From IMG/VR virus record IMGVR_UViG_2579778871_000005: a DNA stretch of 36,051 nt; one strand, 5' to 3'. The position numbers and the translations under genes were made by a program. Below the pieces are notes generated by a model. It worked only from the letters and a program-made list of their open reading frames with translations, was not told the DNA's origin and ran no database searches. Below, piece by piece: positions 1,479 to 12,717 of this stretch. Numbering within the stretch: the first letter of the stretch is position 1; each line of letters begins with the position of its first letter. Origin of the DNA: a virus. Lineage: Duplodnaviria > Heunggongvirae > Uroviricota > Caudoviricetes.

Positions 1479-1931
1479 CTATAACGTCTTATTTTGAACA
1501 CTACTGGCTAGCGCGTGGAGTATGTTAGGTGAGTAACGCCAGCTATCGACCAGTCCGAGGAAATCTGCACAAAACTCACTGCAGAAATACTTATCCTCTC
1601 GCCCACGATTGAAAACAACAAACCCCACAGCACCCAACCAGTCGTATTTCAATTGGTCATTTTGCTGGAAGAACTTCTCAACGCGGGCAGGTGATGCCCT
1701 TGTCAGTATCAAATCCCATTTATCGCGCGGCAGCGGCATTTGCTTGCAGCGCACCCCCTTGTCACGCACCGACGACGAATAACAAACAAACTCACCGTTA
1801 CCCAGGTCAACGGCCAGCTCGCAGTGAGAATACTCACCCCGCGTCACCAGTCGCGTCAGCCAGTCGGAAAGCCGTGCAAACCCATGATGATCTTCTCGCC
1901 CTTTATAGAACGCCAGATACACCTGCTTCAT
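1479..1931 (-). CDS. Permuted papain-like (YiiX/YaeF-type, NlpC/P60 superfamily) protein, putative
   Basis: ORF 1479..1940; likely ATG at 1931 overlapping the upstream stop (ATGA). His-containing motif YSHCELAV early and C-terminal Cys motif KYFCSEFC, the order expected for permuted papain-fold enzymes. Assignment by motif only. Confidence 0.45.
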   Translation of the reverse strand: MKQVYLAFYKGREDHHGFARLSDWLTRLVTRGEYSHCELAVDLGNGEFVCYSSSVRDKGVRCKQMPLPRDKWDLILTRASPARVEKFFQQNDQLKYDWLGAVGFVVFNRGREDKYFCSEFCADFLGLVDSWRYSPNILHALASSVQNKTL

Positions 1932-2554
1932 GGTTGCCACCCCGTGGAGTAGTCATACGCCTGAACTGCCTGGATATCTTCCAGCGCCTCAACGGCGGCA
2001 ATATGCCGCTGGGCATTGGCAAAGAGGCGCATATCGTGATCCATTGTAACGGACTCAAACTGCGCCGCGATTTCATTGGTCAGCTCAAGAAGTCCGAGGT
2101 TTTTGGTCTGCCACATTAAGCCTTTGGGGATTTGCTTTGCCTGTCCCATTTTAGTCAGTGACATCTGCTGGATACGGCTACTGGCATCGCTGTGGAAGTG
2201 GTAGTCACCAATCACAATATAATCGGCAGTGACTTCGTCTCGTTGTGCTTTTATCGCTTGTTTAACTTGCGATTTAGCGTTATTAAGCTCGAGGGCAAAT
2301 CTGGCTACGTCATATACCCATACCTTTCCGTCTAACCGGTAAAAATCCCCTGGGGGTAATGTGGTGGTAAACGTTCTGTCTTCAACATTAACCCAGACAT
2401 ATTCCCCTTGATTGAAATGTTCAAGCCATTGTTGCTCAGTTAATTCAATCAGACTTGTTCTCTCTGGATAACAGAATAACTCGGTATCCATCCAATCCAG
2501 AACACGTAAGGATGCAGGATCGTAGTAAGCATATTTTGACATTATCTTCACCAA
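1928..2554 (-). CDS. Tail fiber assembly protein (Tfa)
   Basis: 208-aa ORF immediately downstream of the tail fiber gene with overlapping start/stop; size, position and C-terminal ..YDYSTGW.. are typical of Tfa chaperones. Confidence 0.6.
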   Translation of the reverse strand: MVKIMSKYAYYDPASLRVLDWMDTELFCYPERTSLIELTEQQWLEHFNQGEYVWVNVEDRTFTTTLPPGDFYRLDGKVWVYDVARFALELNNAKSQVKQAIKAQRDEVTADYIVIGDYHFHSDASSRIQQMSLTKMGQAKQIPKGLMWQTKNLGLLELTNEIAAQFESVTMDHDMRLFANAQRHIAAVEALEDIQAVQAYDYSTGWQP

Positions 2555-7993: not shown

Positions 7994-8199
7994 GGTGGCA
8001 CCTCATCAACATCATGCACCTGCATCGGCCCAATCACCGGGATACGCAGCCGCAGCCCGGAGGCCAGCGTGGGCGTGATCGCAATATGCGGATTAGCGAT
8101 AATGATGCGCTCATAGCCCATCGGATCGCCATAATAGCGGAACGCCAGATTATCCCAGCGTTCACCCTCGGTGGTGATATGTTCAATCCAGCCGCCCAT
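7981..8199 (-). CDS. Tail protein X-like (small LysM-like tail protein)
   Basis: 72-aa ORF (MGGWIEHITTEGERWDNLAFRYYGDPMGYERIIIANP...) of the size and motif pattern of P2 gpX-family proteins. Confidence 0.55.
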   Translation of the reverse strand: MGGWIEHITTEGERWDNLAFRYYGDPMGYERIIIANPHIAITPTLASGLRLRIPVIGPMQVHDVDEVPPWLR

Positions 8200-9182
8200 T
8201 ACACGCTCCTTGTAATGATTGCTGCCGCCAGCCTGCTAACGGCAGGGGAGCACTCTTCCATCAGCGACTGGCCGTTGCGCACAACGTCCAGTGCCTGCGA
8301 AAAAACAGTGGTGAAATTGTCCAGACTGATATCCTCAAACCCGGTCAGGGTGCCGCTGATTTCGTCATAAATCTGCGAGGCGTATTGCCCGACGTCGCCA
8401 AGAACATCTGCAAGTACGCTGCCGTCTGTGATGTCCGTCAGCGTTTGCAGCACATCGTCCAGGGGGGACAATACATCGTCGAGAATATCTTCCAGCGGAG
8501 AGACCACCTCGTCCAGCATCTCCTCCAGCGGTCCCAGTACATCATCAACAAGATCCCCGACTTGTTCCATTGCTTCTCCAATGGCGTCCTCGACCTGTCC
8601 CGCCATATCTTCTGCCCACGACACCGCCTCATCGAACGCCTGCGCAGCGGCATCCAGCGCATCCGATACCTCACCCAGCCCGTCAGTAATATCGCCCAGG
8701 TCTTCGAACATATCGCTGCCAGAAAAACTGTCATCAGCATCGTCAGACCATGAGTCAATATTCGGATCATCCCCGGACACCGCAGGTGGCGTCAGGGGAT
8801 TTTTCGGATCGCCGATGTACTCCTTCAGCGACAGCTCCGCACTTAACGCCTGCACATTGCCGAGGCCATCGGTCTGCTGGCTGGTTGCCCGGATATCGGT
8901 GATCACAAACCAGCCGCGATAGTCACCGTTGCCGAACACCAGCGCCAGCGCCTGATGTGCCACCATCGCGTCACGCAGCCGCGCCAGTTCAACATCCGGC
9001 TGGCAATAGTGTTCGTGGAACACCAGGCTGATACTCACTTCATCCAGCTTTTCGCCGATAAACTGCAACCCCGGCTTACCTTCGATACGTGAGTGCTCGG
9101 CATAATCCATGCCAAACGACGCATCAAAACCGTCCCAGTAGGTCACCACCTCAAACTCAATATCACCCAGTACGGCAAACAT
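8199..9182 (-). CDS. Tail protein, P2 gpU-like N-terminal domain with acidic repeat-rich C-terminus
   Basis: 327-aa ORF immediately downstream of the tape measure gene; C-terminal half made of degenerate acidic repeats (DxxxDVLSPLEDxLDxV). Confidence 0.5.
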   Translation of the reverse strand: MFAVLGDIEFEVVTYWDGFDASFGMDYAEHSRIEGKPGLQFIGEKLDEVSISLVFHEHYCQPDVELARLRDAMVAHQALALVFGNGDYRGWFVITDIRATSQQTDGLGNVQALSAELSLKEYIGDPKNPLTPPAVSGDDPNIDSWSDDADDSFSGSDMFEDLGDITDGLGEVSDALDAAAQAFDEAVSWAEDMAGQVEDAIGEAMEQVGDLVDDVLGPLEEMLDEVVSPLEDILDDVLSPLDDVLQTLTDITDGSVLADVLGDVGQYASQIYDEISGTLTGFEDISLDNFTTVFSQALDVVRNGQSLMEECSPAVSRLAAAIITRSV

Positions 9183-11944
9183 TACGCATACTCCCGGCGT
9201 TCACGACGCGCCATAATCCGCTCCATCATCTTCTCCAGTTCGTGCAGGCTCAGTTTCAGCGCAGAAGTGATTTCGCCTTCGGTAGCCGATGCCGCGCCCT
9301 TGATAGTAATTTGCGGCGCAAAGGTCACATTCACCCCGGATGACTGCCCCGGTACATGCACACTGGCATTGCGCCCTTTGGCGGCAGGAGCATTACTTTT
9401 TGGTAGTTCAGGAACGGCAGGCGCGGCGGCTTTCGGTGGCACTGGCGGAAGCGGTTTGGGGCGGGATAACACTGCGCCCGCTGCTCCGGCCAGCGCCATA
9501 CCCGCCGCAGAGGGCGCAGGCGGTGCGGCTTTCGACAGCAGTGGATTGAACTGGGGAGCGATGACGCCCGTCACTGGCGCAATCTTTGGTATCGGAGCAA
9601 CATCCAGCCCCGGTACGCTGATATCCGGCAGTGGAGGAATTAACGCCGCCGCCATTTGCTGACTGGCGGAAATCGCATCCGGGGCGGTGCGGTTGATACC
9701 AATAGCGGCCCCTTGCGCGATATTATCGCCGAACCCGGCAAAGACCTGGCTGGGGGAGTGAATACCCAGCGTCTCTTTAAACCAGCCGGAAATGGAGTTA
9801 CCAAAATTGACGACCGTCTCTTTCGCGGCGGTCAGCGCATTGCCGATACCGTTCACCAGACCGTTAATCAGATTGCCGCCAAAATCGGTAAAGTTCTTCG
9901 GCATATCGATACCGAAGTATTTCATCACCCCGGCAAAGGCTTTACAGAACAACCCCAGCGGCGACCAGTTCATAATTAATCTGCCGACGCCCGCGATACC
10001 GCCAGAAAACGCGGTCTTAATCTGTGCCCAGATACCGGAGAACCAGCCTGTCACGCCGCTCCAGATACCTTTGATGCCGCTCCATGCCCCGCGAAACGCT
10101 ACCGTGACCTGCGCCCACAGCCGTTTAAAGAAAGCGGATATTGGCCCCCAGTAGCGATAAATCAGATACGCGGCCACGGCGATGCCGGTGATGATTAACC
10201 CGATGGGATTCATCAGCAGCGCACGGCCAAGAAACAATACCGCCCGTCCGGCCATCATCAGACCACGCAGCAGCCCACTGCCCAGAATTTTTGCCAGCTT
10301 TAAAGCGCTACGTCCCAGTGAAGTTAGCATCCGCGTTACCACATGGAATCTGCCCCCTGTCGAAAATGCGACTTTAAGGAACAACCAGCGGGTCCTTAGT
10401 AGTTCAACGGCTTTGATACAGTCAGCAAAGGGAGAAAGCATTAAGTTCAGCGCCAGTTTGCAGCCCACCGTTGCCGCTTTAAAGGCAATAAATCCAGCGA
10501 GTAGTTTGGCAACCGTCGCGACCATCTCCGGGTTTGCCGCGAGCCATTTACTGAACGAATCCAATACGGGTAACAGACTTTCCGATAATTCAACCAGTGC
10601 CGGGCGAAGCGAACTACCTATGCTGATTGCAATTTCATTCATCGCAACTTGAGATTTTCGCCACCGGGCTTCCAGCGTGTTATTTTGTTTACCAAAGTCG
10701 GTATCCAACGCATTTTGCGATCCAGGATCACTCATCTGGGCCTTATTAGACTGATATTTATCCCAGTTCTGCCGCATCGAAAGTAGATGATTGACGGTCT
10801 GAATATCGGTAAACACCTCTGACAGACCGAACGACTCCATCAATTTTTGCTGTGCTTCGCCGTCACCGCTTGCGCCAGCTTCCTGCCACTGCTTAATAAA
10901 TGCATCACCTTTTCCCTTAATAAAGCGATCCGCAATCATCAAGGAAGCTTCATATTGTGAATAACCTTTGGCGACGTAATCCTGCATTGACGCCTCATAG
11001 TCTACGCCCGCTTTTTCATATTTCTTAACGGTGTCACCGCGCGTCATTGCAGCCATCCAGTTAGTCATATTGGTCACAGCTTCTTCTGCTGAACCTGAAC
11101 CTTTTGCTGCCTCAAGAGATGCAACGATCTCCTTAATTGCCTCCGGCCCGGTAATGCCTTTGGCGGCAAAGCTTTTCGCCAGGGTGGGGAGAGCTTTAGC
11201 CATATCCTTTAATTCAAAGGAACCGGTCTTTGCACCGACGGCTGCCATTGCAAAGGCTTCTTCCATCTCCTTACCATCACCAATCTTCAGCGCATCGCTG
11301 AATGCATATGTCATCTTCGCCAGATCGGTCATATCGGCTTTGGTGGCGGTGGCCGTTTTACCGAGTAATTCCACCATGCCAGCTGCTTTTTCAGGATTCA
11401 TACCGTCTGCAACCAGTTGATTCACACCGCCGAGCAGTGTTTCCTGCAGTTGGTTTACCTGGCCCGCGGCCTGACGGATGGCATTACCAATAGCCACTTC
11501 CTGTTTATCATTAAGGTTGCCTGTGACGGCGATATCCCGTAAGCCGGACTCAAATCCTGCGTAGGTCTTAACAGACGATACGAACGGAGCCGACATTGTT
11601 CTTGCAAGGGCATAGGTTTCTGCCCCCTGGGCATACAGATTCATCCGCTGATTGCGTAAGGCCTGACTACGCGCGGCAGATGCTGACAATCTTGCCTGTT
11701 GATTCTGTAACTGCTGGAGAGTGCGTGAAACACGCTGTAAATCAGCGTTCAACCTGTTCGCTACGCTCCCCCCCAAATGACCGTAACGGGCAAGAGCGTC
11801 GTTCAGGGCGTTCTGTTGAGTGCGTAACCGCTGTGTTGATCTGCCTAAATCGGTTAACGCGCTGCGCGTTCCCCCCATTGCAGAACGAAACGCCCCGCTA
11901 ATTGCACCACCAATCAGAACACTAATTGAAAGATCTGCGGCCAC
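9182..11944 (-). CDS. Tail tape measure protein
   Basis: 920-aa ORF, Ala/Gly-rich with coiled-coil-like N-terminus and internal hydrophobic segments, between the tail tube/chaperone and baseplate genes. Confidence 0.85.
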   Translation of the reverse strand: MAADLSISVLIGGAISGAFRSAMGGTRSALTDLGRSTQRLRTQQNALNDALARYGHLGGSVANRLNADLQRVSRTLQQLQNQQARLSASAARSQALRNQRMNLYAQGAETYALARTMSAPFVSSVKTYAGFESGLRDIAVTGNLNDKQEVAIGNAIRQAAGQVNQLQETLLGGVNQLVADGMNPEKAAGMVELLGKTATATKADMTDLAKMTYAFSDALKIGDGKEMEEAFAMAAVGAKTGSFELKDMAKALPTLAKSFAAKGITGPEAIKEIVASLEAAKGSGSAEEAVTNMTNWMAAMTRGDTVKKYEKAGVDYEASMQDYVAKGYSQYEASLMIADRFIKGKGDAFIKQWQEAGASGDGEAQQKLMESFGLSEVFTDIQTVNHLLSMRQNWDKYQSNKAQMSDPGSQNALDTDFGKQNNTLEARWRKSQVAMNEIAISIGSSLRPALVELSESLLPVLDSFSKWLAANPEMVATVAKLLAGFIAFKAATVGCKLALNLMLSPFADCIKAVELLRTRWLFLKVAFSTGGRFHVVTRMLTSLGRSALKLAKILGSGLLRGLMMAGRAVLFLGRALLMNPIGLIITGIAVAAYLIYRYWGPISAFFKRLWAQVTVAFRGAWSGIKGIWSGVTGWFSGIWAQIKTAFSGGIAGVGRLIMNWSPLGLFCKAFAGVMKYFGIDMPKNFTDFGGNLINGLVNGIGNALTAAKETVVNFGNSISGWFKETLGIHSPSQVFAGFGDNIAQGAAIGINRTAPDAISASQQMAAALIPPLPDISVPGLDVAPIPKIAPVTGVIAPQFNPLLSKAAPPAPSAAGMALAGAAGAVLSRPKPLPPVPPKAAAPAVPELPKSNAPAAKGRNASVHVPGQSSGVNVTFAPQITIKGAASATEGEITSALKLSLHELEKMMERIMARRERREYA

Positions 11945-11982
11945 GTTTTACACTCCCGAAAACCACACGAAAAAGAGGCGTT

Positions 11983-12261
11983 ATGAACAACGCATTAGCT
12001 TTGTTTAAAGGACTATTGATCGCTGCGATTGTGGTGGTAGATGGCTGGGCGCTATTTCAGGTGGTCAGCTACACCTTACAGAATTGCCATAATGGACTGG
12101 CGATTGTGTTAATGATTGGTGTGGGCAGCATTGGCGTCCTGTTACTGACAGCCCTGATGGCCTGGGTAATACAGCCCGCCGTTTATTTACTGACTTTCCT
12201 GTTTGCCATTATCGGCGGTATTACCGAATGGGTACTCAACCGCCGCCGCTCTCACGCTTAA
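11983..12261 (+). CDS. Small membrane protein (about 3 TM helices), transcribed antisense to the tail operon
   Basis: ORF 11926..12261 plus; likely ATG at 11983 preceded by AAGAGG (11973-11978); product MNNALALFKGLLIAAIVVVDGWALFQ... is strongly hydrophobic; fills the gap between the chaperone and tape measure genes where no minus-strand ORF of 60 aa or more exists. Confidence 0.45.
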   Translation: MNNALALFKGLLIAAIVVVDGWALFQVVSYTLQNCHNGLAIVLMIGVGSIGVLLLTALMAWVIQPAVYLLTFLFAIIGGITEWVLNRRRSHA

Positions 12262-12335
12262 TCTGGGCGCTGGCCTCATCAAGCCAGCGTTCAAAATCCC
12301 CAACCGCCAGATTGTCAATTTCCCCCGGCTGAAAT

Positions 12336-12653
12336 CTAAACCACCGCGCCAGCAGTGCCATCGCCTGCCACAGTTGCTGCGGATTCGCCGCCCAGCCCAA
12401 GCATGTCCTGAAATCGTTTCTGCAGTGCCTGATAATCAGCCAGATCCATTTCAGCCAGGTCTTCCGGCACCAGCCCGGTCATTGCCGCTAACAGCGGCTC
12501 GTCCCAGTCTTCCGGCTTATCGCTGATACGCCGCGCCGCGCGCATATCTTTCACCTTCAGGCGAGTGAGTTGCAGCTCGTCGATGCGCTGCCCGGAGGGC
12601 GCGGTGAAAGGGTATTGCAGTTTGAAAGTGTTTTTCATGGTGACTGTCCTCAT
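12336..12653 (-). CDS. Tail assembly chaperone (P2 gpE-like), putative; start uncertain
   Basis: 105-aa ORF directly downstream of the tail tube gene, the usual chaperone position; no frameshift-extension ORF detected by eye. Confidence 0.45.
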   Translation of the reverse strand: MRTVTMKNTFKLQYPFTAPSGQRIDELQLTRLKVKDMRAARRISDKPEDWDEPLLAAMTGLVPEDLAEMDLADYQALQKRFQDMLGLGGESAATVAGDGTAGAVV

Positions 12654-12717
12654 CGAATGATGAGGACAGTATTGAGGAGGGAATAAACAAACAGTATTAA
12701 ACGGCTTTAATGAGCGG

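What the first reader, a model, noticed from the sequence alone, without database searches (positions are those of the whole stretch)
11945..12335. Antisense small membrane-protein gene in the chaperone-to-tape-measure gap; no frameshift extension visible
P2-type tails normally place a programmed-frameshift extension of the chaperone between the tube and tape measure genes. Here the 390-bp gap has no minus-strand ORF of 60 aa or more. Instead a plus-strand ORF (11983-12261, AAGAGG site, about three TM helices) runs against the late operon. It may be lysogeny-expressed cargo, or the frameshift product may be short or the chaperone call wrong.
Basis: seen in the sequence. Interest (0 to 1): 0.55.

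Follow-up and report, generated by a model that had tools for sequence, protein, structure and literature searches.

The report
Antisense membrane-protein gene beside frameshifted tail chaperone
The gap between the tail-chaperone and tape-measure genes of this Mu-like E. coli prophage holds a normal frameshift extension in an unusual (+1) frame, plus a real, fast-evolving backwards-facing gene for a small membrane protein that probably helps the lysogen exclude other phages, though that function is untested.

Summary
The plus-strand ORF is confirmed. It runs 11983-12261 and encodes 92 aa with an AAGAGG ribosome-binding site and three hydrophobic segments. It is a real gene: dN/dS is 0.10-0.29 against Salmonella orthologues, and homologues down to 33% identity sit at the same antisense position.

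"No frameshift extension visible" is wrong. The E' extension lies on the minus strand at 12412-12236. It is in the +1 frame of the chaperone, not the -1 frame used by P2. It matches phrog_8286 (E=1.8e-20), and RefSeq annotates it as a GpE-family protein. An in-frame UUU_C (here CGA_UUU_C, 12416-12410) is present in every relative examined. I infer a +1 slip there.

The window is a BcepMu-like transposable prophage. Many relatives have only 3-110 nt between E' and the tape-measure gene, so the antisense gene is dispensable. Of 62 evaluable species-representative loci, 21 carry an antisense hydrophobic ORF in this slot. BcepMu itself has one, and its annotated sense-strand "gp43" looks like a shadow ORF.

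The small protein is the fastest-diverging gene locally. In one pair of near-identical backbones, about 210 nt inside it drop to 33-60% identity. The closest analogue is the HK97 gp15 exclusion moron. The function is inferred only.

The parts
11983..12261 (+). Gene for a 92-aa polytopic small membrane protein (RefSeq WP_032217816.1, 'hypothetical protein'), antisense to the late tail operon
   Evidence: ORF and translation. dN/dS 0.10-0.29. Homologues at the same position. Hydropathy profile. No hit in Pfam, NCBIfam, PADLOC or Rfam.
11973..11978 (+). Shine-Dalgarno AAGAGG, 4 nt upstream of the ATG
   Evidence: A purine-rich SD is conserved in relatives.
11926..11954 (+). Sigma-70-like promoter candidate TTGAAA-17-TACACT. 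The -35 lies in tape-measure codons 4-6 and the -10 lies in the tape-measure SD-to-start spacer.
   Evidence: Consensus scan. T[TG]GA[AG]A-17-TAnnnT is kept in 14 diverse enterobacterial loci. Function is not shown, and the conservation is confounded by tape-measure coding and RBS constraints.
12336..12638 (-). Tail assembly chaperone E (100 aa from ATG 12638; an upstream ATG at 12653 gives 105 aa)
   Evidence: PF10109 Phage_TAC_7, E=7.8e-21. phrog_166. PGAP annotation.
12410..12416 (-). CGA_UUU_C, the inferred +1 programmed-frameshift site (tRNA-Phe re-pairs UUU to UUC)
   Evidence: Coordinates. An in-frame TTT_C is present in all 76 loci examined and in PhiKM, KP12, BcepMu and SARB27. Selection switches frame just downstream. 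TTT is kept even where TTC dominates. The slip itself is not demonstrated.
12236..12412 (-). E' extension in the +1 frame. The predicted fusion E+E' is 133 aa. PGAP calls 12236-12361 a 'GpE family phage tail protein'.
   Evidence: phrog_8286 E=1.8e-20. PF06528 sub-threshold, 14.5 bits, covering profile positions 1-35 of 37. BLASTP against P2 E' gives E=0.002.
12236..12261 (.). 26-nt overlap of the convergent 3' ends of E' and the small gene. The basic tail NRRRSHA is encoded opposite ...RESGGG*.
   Evidence: The same overlap of about 25-28 nt is seen in the enterobacterial relatives.
9182..11944 (-). Tape measure protein gene (920 aa, GTG start)
   Evidence: PF10145. ORF.

Best explanation
Two separate things fill the chaperone-to-tape-measure gap.

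(1) An ordinary chaperone pair. E (12638-12336) is extended to E+E' (133 aa, ending at 12236) by a programmed shift into the +1 frame. The most likely site is a +1 slip of tRNA-Phe on CGA_UUU_C (12416-12410).

(2) An independent accessory gene on the opposite strand (11983-12261). It encodes a 92-aa inner-membrane protein with three hydrophobic segments and a basic C-terminal tail. The late-operon mRNA cannot express it. It is most likely transcribed from its own sigma-70-type promoter, which is embedded in the tape-measure start region. That would happen in the lysogen, when the late operon is silent. Convergent late transcription would then shut it off during lytic growth.

The most likely role is a prophage-encoded membrane-level exclusion or defence function, like HK97 gp15. 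It would interfere with inner-membrane passage of DNA from related incoming phages.

Shown: gene reality, position, dispensability, rapid divergence, and the presence and frame of E'. Inferred: the promoter, the timing of expression, membrane topology (N-out/C-in by the positive-inside rule), the exclusion function and the slip mechanism.

The confidence of 0.6 is for the whole statement. The structural parts (a real antisense gene plus a +1-frame E') are about 0.9. The exclusion function specifically is about 0.4.
For: E':
- The +1-frame ORF matches phrog_8286 at E=1.8e-20.
- PF06528 aligns over its whole length at sub-threshold score.
- PGAP annotates it as a GpE-family CDS.
- All four substitutions downstream of GGCGGCGAA among the Salmonella orthologues are synonymous in the +1 frame and non-synonymous in frame 0.
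- UUU_C is found in 76 of 76 loci plus four phage or prophage records.

Small gene:
- dN/dS is 0.10-0.29 and indels are in frame only.
- A profile search of 1.84 billion representatives finds only homologues of about 90 aa. All with enough flanking sequence to judge lie antisense between E' and the tape-measure gene.
- No minus-strand ORF lies opposite it.
- It is absent from close relatives, where the gap is 76-110 nt: SARB27, PhiKM and KP12. It is decayed in two Brenneria loci.
- A promoter-like T[TG]GA[AG]A-17-TAnnnT is conserved upstream.
- It diverges far faster than its neighbours: 38-83% identity against 92-99% for tube, E and E'. A 210-nt hypervariable block sits in an otherwise 93-100% identical backbone.

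HK97 gene 15 lies at the equivalent chaperone/tape-measure junction and encodes an inner-membrane exclusion protein (PMC3594210).
Against: - There are no expression data.
- The promoter match is only 9 of 12 positions, and its conservation is confounded by tape-measure coding and RBS constraints.
- No canonical terminator follows the ORF.
- GC content does not differ from the flanks.
- There is no sequence similarity to gp15/YebO, any Sie protein or any PADLOC model.
- The slot is occupied in beta- and gamma-proteobacterial phages alike. That looks more like an old resident than a recent moron.
- The AlphaFold model is uninformative (pTM 0.30).
Confidence: 0.6

Rival explanations
1. The small protein is a membrane-damaging toxin or holin-like protein, of the abortive-infection or type-I-toxin kind. 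The fully complementary late-operon transcript would limit its mRNA. It would kill or permeabilise the cell under particular conditions rather than block entry.
For: It has three hydrophobic segments plus a charged C-terminal tail, which resembles class I holins. There is a weak holin PHROG hit, phrog_1350 at E=0.028. The gene is fully antisense to a strongly transcribed operon.
Against: The holin hit is not significant. The prophage has its own holin and transglycosylase cassette elsewhere. At 92 aa it is larger than typical type I toxins (my own knowledge). A constitutive-looking promoter and a strong SD are odd for a toxin. Stable carriage is seen in hundreds of contigs.
Confidence: 0.12
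2. The element matters mainly as antisense transcription. A promoter firing against the late operon would damp leaky tail-gene expression in lysogens, or tune the chaperone to tape-measure ratio. The peptide would be secondary.
For: The promoter overlaps the tape-measure RBS and start. The transcript would be complementary to E'/E. Position and orientation are conserved across groups with no detectable sequence similarity.
Against: Strong purifying selection acts on the amino-acid sequence. Hydrophobic character, length and the basic tail are kept across divergent versions. Many relatives manage without the element.
Confidence: 0.1
3. The protein acts in the phage's own lytic cycle or infection. 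It could be a membrane factor aiding tail assembly, tape-measure handling or genome delivery.
For: It is tightly embedded between E' and the tape-measure gene, overlapping E' by 26 nt. The slot is conserved across a wide host range.
Against: The orientation is opposite to the late operon. It is absent or decayed in many otherwise intact relatives, including isolated phages PhiKM and KP12. It diverges much faster than the structural genes.
Confidence: 0.08
4. The plus-strand ORF is a chance or shadow ORF, and the gap is just a spacer.
For: It has no family annotation and no expression data.
Against: dN/dS is 0.10-0.29 with dS up to 0.9, and indels are in frame. The ORF is kept at 33-42% identity in distant relatives. 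The opposite strand is closed in all three frames.
Confidence: 0.02

Closest known systems
HK97 gene 15 moron (gp15 superinfection-exclusion protein; Cumby et al. 2012, summarised in PMC3594210)
   Same: A small inner-membrane protein gene sits in the tail operon exactly between the frameshifted tail-assembly-chaperone genes and the tape-measure gene. It is absent from close relatives and is expressed independently of the late operon.
   Different: HK97 is a siphovirus. gp15 is predicted to have a single N-terminal TM helix (my recollection of Cumby et al. 2012) and is YebO-related. Here there are three hydrophobic segments, no YebO or any Pfam similarity, antisense orientation, an overlap with the E' stop, no clear terminator and no GC deviation. 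No function has been tested.
P2 E / E+E' tail chaperone pair (PF10109 + PF06528; -1 frameshift at T_TTT_TTG)
   Same: The position between tube and tape-measure genes is the same. The TAC_7 domain is present. The extension is distantly homologous to P2 E'.
   Different: Here E' is in the +1 frame, with a conserved CGA_UUU_C and no heptamer. In P2 it is -1, and E' overlaps the start of T with no gap.
Phage Mu gp41 chaperone with a -2 frameshift (Xu et al. 2004, as cited in PMC5009743 and PMC2628397)
   Same: The extension is reached in the +1 reading frame. The head and transposition genes of the window prophage are Mu-like.
   Different: Mu has CGG_GGG_CGA, where a -2 re-pairing on the G run is possible. 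The UUU_C site here offers no -2 re-pairing, so a +1 slip is inferred.
Burkholderia phage BcepMu gp41-gp44 region (Bcepmuvirus)
   Same: The tail module and E/E' arrangement are the same. An antisense hydrophobic ORF of about 80 aa with a basic tail lies between E' and the tape-measure gene. The equivalent ORF is annotated as a hypothetical protein in Burkholderia phage vB_E427 and Pseudomonas phage Bise.
   Different: Homology to the enterobacterial protein is not demonstrable (hhalign probability 24.5%). The BcepMu record annotates a sense-strand 'gp43' there instead. Its codon-position GC (0.86/0.47/0.56) is the mirror of the antisense ORF's gene-like pattern (0.59/0.46/0.93).

Membership tests
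P2-type E/E+E' frameshifted tail chaperone | Phage_TAC_7 (PF10109) chaperone domain between the tube and tape-measure genes | tested here: met
   E=7.8e-21, 74 bits against a cut-off of 25. Gene order is sheath-tube-E-T-U-X-D.
P2-type E/E+E' frameshifted tail chaperone | An overlapping extension ORF homologous to GpE (PF06528) | tested here: inconclusive
   PF06528 scores 14.5 bits against a cut-off of 23 but aligns to profile positions 1-35 of 37. phrog_8286 E=1.8e-20. BLASTP against P2 E' gives E=0.002. PGAP names it GpE family.
P2-type E/E+E' frameshifted tail chaperone | A -1 frameshift on an X_XXY_YYZ heptamer | tested here: not met
   The extension is in the +1 frame (12653-12400 = 253, which is 1 mod 3). 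This holds in all relatives. The conserved site is UUU_C.
Moron (an element inserted between genes that are adjacent in related phages, with its own promoter and terminator and deviant GC; definition in PMC3594210) | Present between genes that are adjacent in related phages | tested here: met
   The gap is 291 nt here, against 76-110 nt in SARB27, PhiKM and KP12, and 3-110 nt in 26 of 62 evaluable loci.
Moron | Own promoter | tested here: inconclusive
   TTGAAA-17-TACACT matches 9 of 12 positions. The pattern is conserved in 14 loci, but that conservation is confounded by the tape-measure RBS and codons.
Moron | Own terminator | tested here: not met
   No terminator-like site lies downstream on the plus strand. 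There is an 8-bp hairpin without a U tract, z = -2.35.
Moron | GC content different from the flanks | tested here: not met
   GC is 0.48-0.52 over the ORF and 0.50-0.61 in the flanks.
Moron | Expressed from the repressed prophage | not testable with these tools
   Needs RNA-seq or a reporter in a lysogen.
HK97 gp15 / YebO-type exclusion protein | Sequence similarity to YebO/gp15 | tested here: not met
   No Pfam family at E<=0.1 in 12 family members.
HK97 gp15 / YebO-type exclusion protein | Blocks DNA entry of superinfecting phage | not testable with these tools
   Needs plating and DNA-entry assays.
Holin (class I) | Significant similarity to a holin family and a position next to an endolysin | tested here: not met
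   phrog_1350 reaches only E=0.028. The prophage's holin and SLT transglycosylase lie elsewhere.
Known anti-phage defence proteins (PADLOC-DB) | Match to a defence-system model | tested here: not met
   No hits for the window protein or the BcepMu analogue.

The most novel reading that the evidence does not exclude
The E'-to-tape-measure junction of BcepMu-type tail operons is an old, dedicated antisense 'exclusion cassette' slot. It would hold a lysogeny-expressed small membrane protein whose hypervariable transmembrane core sets which related phages are blocked at inner-membrane DNA entry. The cassette is physically locked to the tail operon, because its 3' end overlaps the E' stop and its promoter overlaps the tape-measure RBS. 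Alleles could therefore be swapped by recombination within otherwise identical tail modules, in the manner of an immunity-type specificity system.
Probability: 0.2. Interest if true: 0.7.

Novelty: new variant of a known kind. Interest (0 to 1): 0.45.

Why it matters
This gives a compact, testable candidate for prophage-encoded exclusion in contractile-tailed Mu-like/P2-tailed phages. It parallels the single well-studied siphovirus example, HK97 gp15, at the same operon junction. A natural allelic series is available to map specificity: near-identical backbones with 38%-identical cassettes.

It also corrects annotation. The frameshifted chaperone of this whole phage group uses the +1 frame with a conserved UUU_C, whereas pipelines annotate two separate genes. 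BcepMu 'gp43' is probably a shadow of an unannotated antisense gene.

None of this overturns current understanding.

Tried and rejected
- A -1-frame extension. That frame is open for 82 codons but has no family hit in Pfam, NCBIfam or PHROGs, and substitutions do not favour it. It is a chance open frame.
- GGG_C (12397-12394) as the slip site. It is not conserved in SARB27.
- A -2 slip as in Mu. UUU_C allows no re-pairing, whereas Mu has a G run.
- My first automatic frame assignment called 7 loci '-1'. Homology-based rechecking showed all are +1.
- Megablast and tblastn against INPHARED phages found nothing for the DNA or the enterobacterial small protein.
- The AlphaFold2 model has pLDDT 72.7 and pTM 0.30 and shows only long helices. 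No fold search was run, because matches would be meaningless.
- The search for related loci with the divergent small-protein alignment failed for lack of a conserved stretch. I surveyed with E' instead.
- hhalign between the enterobacterial family and the beta-proteobacterial positional analogues gave probability 24.5% over the C-terminal 24 columns only, a region confounded by the E' overlap. Common ancestry is therefore not claimed.
- Rfam shows nothing in the gap.
- The Pectobacterium gaps of about 215 nt hold no homologue, only hairpins.

Full report
**What the window is.** The region is 100% identical to prophages in two of 5,426 complete E. coli genomes. In strain A35 the prophage lies next to grxA. 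It carries Mom/Com, a DDE transposase, a DUF935 portal and Mu-type head genes, joined to a P2-type tail module. Related isolated phages are classified as Bcepmuvirus. The late operon runs on the minus strand:
- sheath, 14651-13242
- tube, 13242-12718 (PF04985)
- chaperone, 12653/12638-12336 (PF10109, E=7.8e-21)
- tape measure, 11944-9182 (PF10145)
- gpU, gpX and gpD homologues

**Checking the observation.**
- The gap 11945-12335 is as described and holds no minus-strand ORF of 60 aa or more.
- The plus-strand ORF (ATG 11983 to TAA 12261, 92 aa) and its AAGAGG (11973-11978) are real.
- Hydropathy shows three hydrophobic segments and a basic tail NRRRSHA.
- The claim that no frameshift extension is visible does not hold.

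**The frameshift extension exists.**
- The +1 frame of the chaperone is open from 12478 to a TGA at 12238-12236.
- Its product matches phrog_8286 at E=1.8e-20.
- It aligns end to end with Pfam Phage_P2_GpE at a sub-threshold 14.5 bits.
- It is 27% identical to P2 E' (E=0.002).
- RefSeq annotates it as a separate 41-aa 'GpE family phage tail protein'.
- Among Salmonella orthologues, every substitution downstream of GGCGGCGAA is synonymous in the +1 frame and non-synonymous in frame 0. Upstream of CAGAAACGATTT, the synonymous changes are in frame 0. Selection therefore switches frame between those points.
- The -1 frame is also open for 82 codons, but it has no family hit.

**Where the shift happens (inferred).**
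- I collected 70 loci encoding E' from species-representative genomes and added the earlier loci. E' is in the +1 frame in every case where both frames could be assigned. Seven loci that my first heuristic called '-1' are +1 by homology.
- All 76 loci have exactly one in-frame TTT followed by C, 19-40 nt upstream of the E' homology. It is usually CGA_TTT_CAG. In beta-proteobacteria and BcepMu it is GCC/TCC_TTT_CGC.
- TTT is kept even in genomes where TTC is the majority Phe codon. The naive joint probability is about 10^-15, but this ignores shared ancestry among the loci.
- tRNA-Phe can re-pair perfectly from UUU to UUC. No -2 re-pairing is available.
- P2 uses -1 at T_TTT_TTG.
- Mu reaches its +1-frame extension at CGG_GGG_CGA. 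The literature reports this as -2 (PMC5009743 and PMC2628397).
- I therefore infer a +1 slip at 12416-12410, giving a 133-aa E+E'. This is not demonstrated.

**The antisense ORF is a gene.**
- Against four Salmonella orthologues, dN/dS is 0.10-0.29 at dS 0.47-0.93, and the only indels are 3 or 6 nt.
- The opposite strand is closed in all frames across the ORF's central part.
- A word-indexed search found 13 clusters, all from E. coli or Salmonella where a source name is given, at 70-100% identity.
- A full HMM scan of 1.84 billion representatives added five more proteins of 89-93 aa at 33-42% identity.
- Wherever enough flanking sequence exists, the gene lies antisense between E' and the tape-measure gene, with its 3' end overlapping the E' stop by about 25-28 nt. 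Two short contigs for P0015 could not be judged.
- No Pfam, NCBIfam, PADLOC or Rfam family matches.

**The gene is dispensable and fast-evolving.**
- Close relatives lack it. SARB27 (75% identity to the window over the fused E+E' query), PhiKM and KP12 have 76-110 nt with a hairpin between E' and the tape-measure gene.
- Two Brenneria loci hold frameshifted remnants.
- Compared with the window, tube, E and E' are 92-99% identical in the Salmonella-type loci, while the small protein is 70-83%. In L016 it is 38%.
- L005 and L016 are 93-100% identical on both sides. About 210 nt, from the E' stop to codon 13 of the small gene, drop to 33-60% identity. This is a sharply bounded hypervariable cassette.

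**The slot is conserved more widely.**
- Of the 62 evaluable species-representative loci, 26 have gaps under 120 nt, 21 have larger gaps containing an antisense hydrophobic ORF, and 15 have larger gaps without one. The last group is mainly a Pectobacterium clade with an unrelated spacer of about 215 nt.
- The beta-proteobacterial versions also end in a basic tail: RSRA, RSRV or RSRP.
- BcepMu, Burkholderia phage vB_E427, Ralstonia phage YO107_2 and Pseudomonas phage Bise each have such an ORF.
- Homology between these and the enterobacterial family is not demonstrable (hhalign probability 24.5%). I treat them as positional analogues.
- In BcepMu the antisense ORF has gene-like codon-position GC (0.59/0.46/0.93; the tube gene is 0.59/0.35/0.86). 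The annotated sense-strand 'gp43' shows the mirror pattern (0.86/0.47/0.56). It is probably a shadow ORF.

**How it probably works.**
- The gene cannot be expressed from the late transcript.
- A sigma-70-like TTGAAA-17-TACACT sits at 11926-11954. The pattern T[TG]GA[AG]A-17-TAnnnT recurs in 14 diverse loci. The tape-measure codons and RBS spacer that it overlaps could explain part of that conservation.
- No clear terminator follows the ORF, and its GC content is not deviant.
- The most economical reading is a lysogen-expressed inner-membrane protein that is silenced by convergent late transcription.
- Three things point to a role in phage-phage conflict: the position, the membrane location and the hypervariability. 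HK97 gp15 is the direct precedent. It is an inner-membrane exclusion protein encoded between the chaperone and tape-measure genes (PMC3594210).
- The gene fails the sequence-membership test for gp15/YebO and for holins. The comparison is 'works like', not 'is a member of'.
- Rivals are a toxin or holin-like protein, a primarily antisense-RNA regulator, and a lytic-cycle accessory factor. Each is less well supported (see the rivals section).

**Verdict.** Novelty is modest. The gene is already annotated as hypothetical, and its likely kind is known. The antisense slot, its cassette-like hypervariability and the uniform +1-frame UUU_C chaperone shift do not appear in the papers I searched.

Noticed in passing
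window 12643-12670 (minus strand): A 12-bp perfect hairpin (ACUGUCCUCAUC-AUUC-GAUGAGGACAGU) lies between the tube and chaperone genes. Its 3' arm contains the chaperone's GAGGA Shine-Dalgarno. Folding gives z = -4.56, with 0 of 200 shuffles as stable. The stem is conserved and the loop differs in the Salmonella relatives. It may limit chaperone translation or stabilise the mRNA.
   Followed up: partly
L009 (BcepMu AY539836) 1864-2250 (+) versus 1951-2193 (-): The annotated sense-strand gp43 ('alternative gene42 C-terminus by ribosomal slippage') has codon-position GC of 0.86/0.47/0.56. The unannotated antisense 80-aa hydrophobic ORF has the gene-like 0.59/0.46/0.93. gp43 is probably a shadow ORF. 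The real chaperone frameshift is gp41 into gp42, in the +1 frame, at UCC_UUU_CGC.
   Followed up: partly
window 8199-9182 (minus strand): The gpU homologue is 327 aa. PF06995 covers only residues 6-123. The rest is a long, acidic, repeat-like extension rich in D/E-x-L motifs. P2 gpU is 159 aa. PGAP marks the A35 copy as a partial pseudogene. The long form is kept at 294-327 aa in relatives.
   Followed up: no
window 9182-11944 versus L001 15383-18145: The tape-measure gene is intact here (920 aa). It differs by a single base from the A35 copy, which PGAP flags as having an internal stop. The A35 prophage also has a frameshifted gpD.
   Followed up: partly
L053 and L057 (Brenneria), E'-to-tape-measure gap: These gaps hold frameshifted, truncated remnants of the small membrane-protein gene. 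tblastn gives E of 1e-11 to 1e-14, split over two frames. The gene has decayed in place.
   Followed up: yes
L029-L041 and L045 (Pectobacterium and Samsonia), gap after E': The gap is about 215 nt, is unrelated to the small gene, and has no hydrophobic ORF. It contains a strong terminator-like hairpin (CCGGCCAGCG...CGCTGGCCGTTTTGC) directly after E' and a second GC hairpin.
   Followed up: no
L007 1104-1385 and L008 1103-1384; L013 1354-1677: PhiKM and KP12 carry an extra sense-strand 93-aa hypothetical gene between tube and chaperone. One metagenomic relative has a non-hydrophobic antisense ORF there. The tube-chaperone junction may be a second insertion point.
   Followed up: no
window 12187-12318 (minus strand, -1 frame of the chaperone): The -1 frame is also open for 82 codons across the chaperone stop. 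It has no family match. It could mislead a search for a canonical -1 extension.
   Followed up: yes
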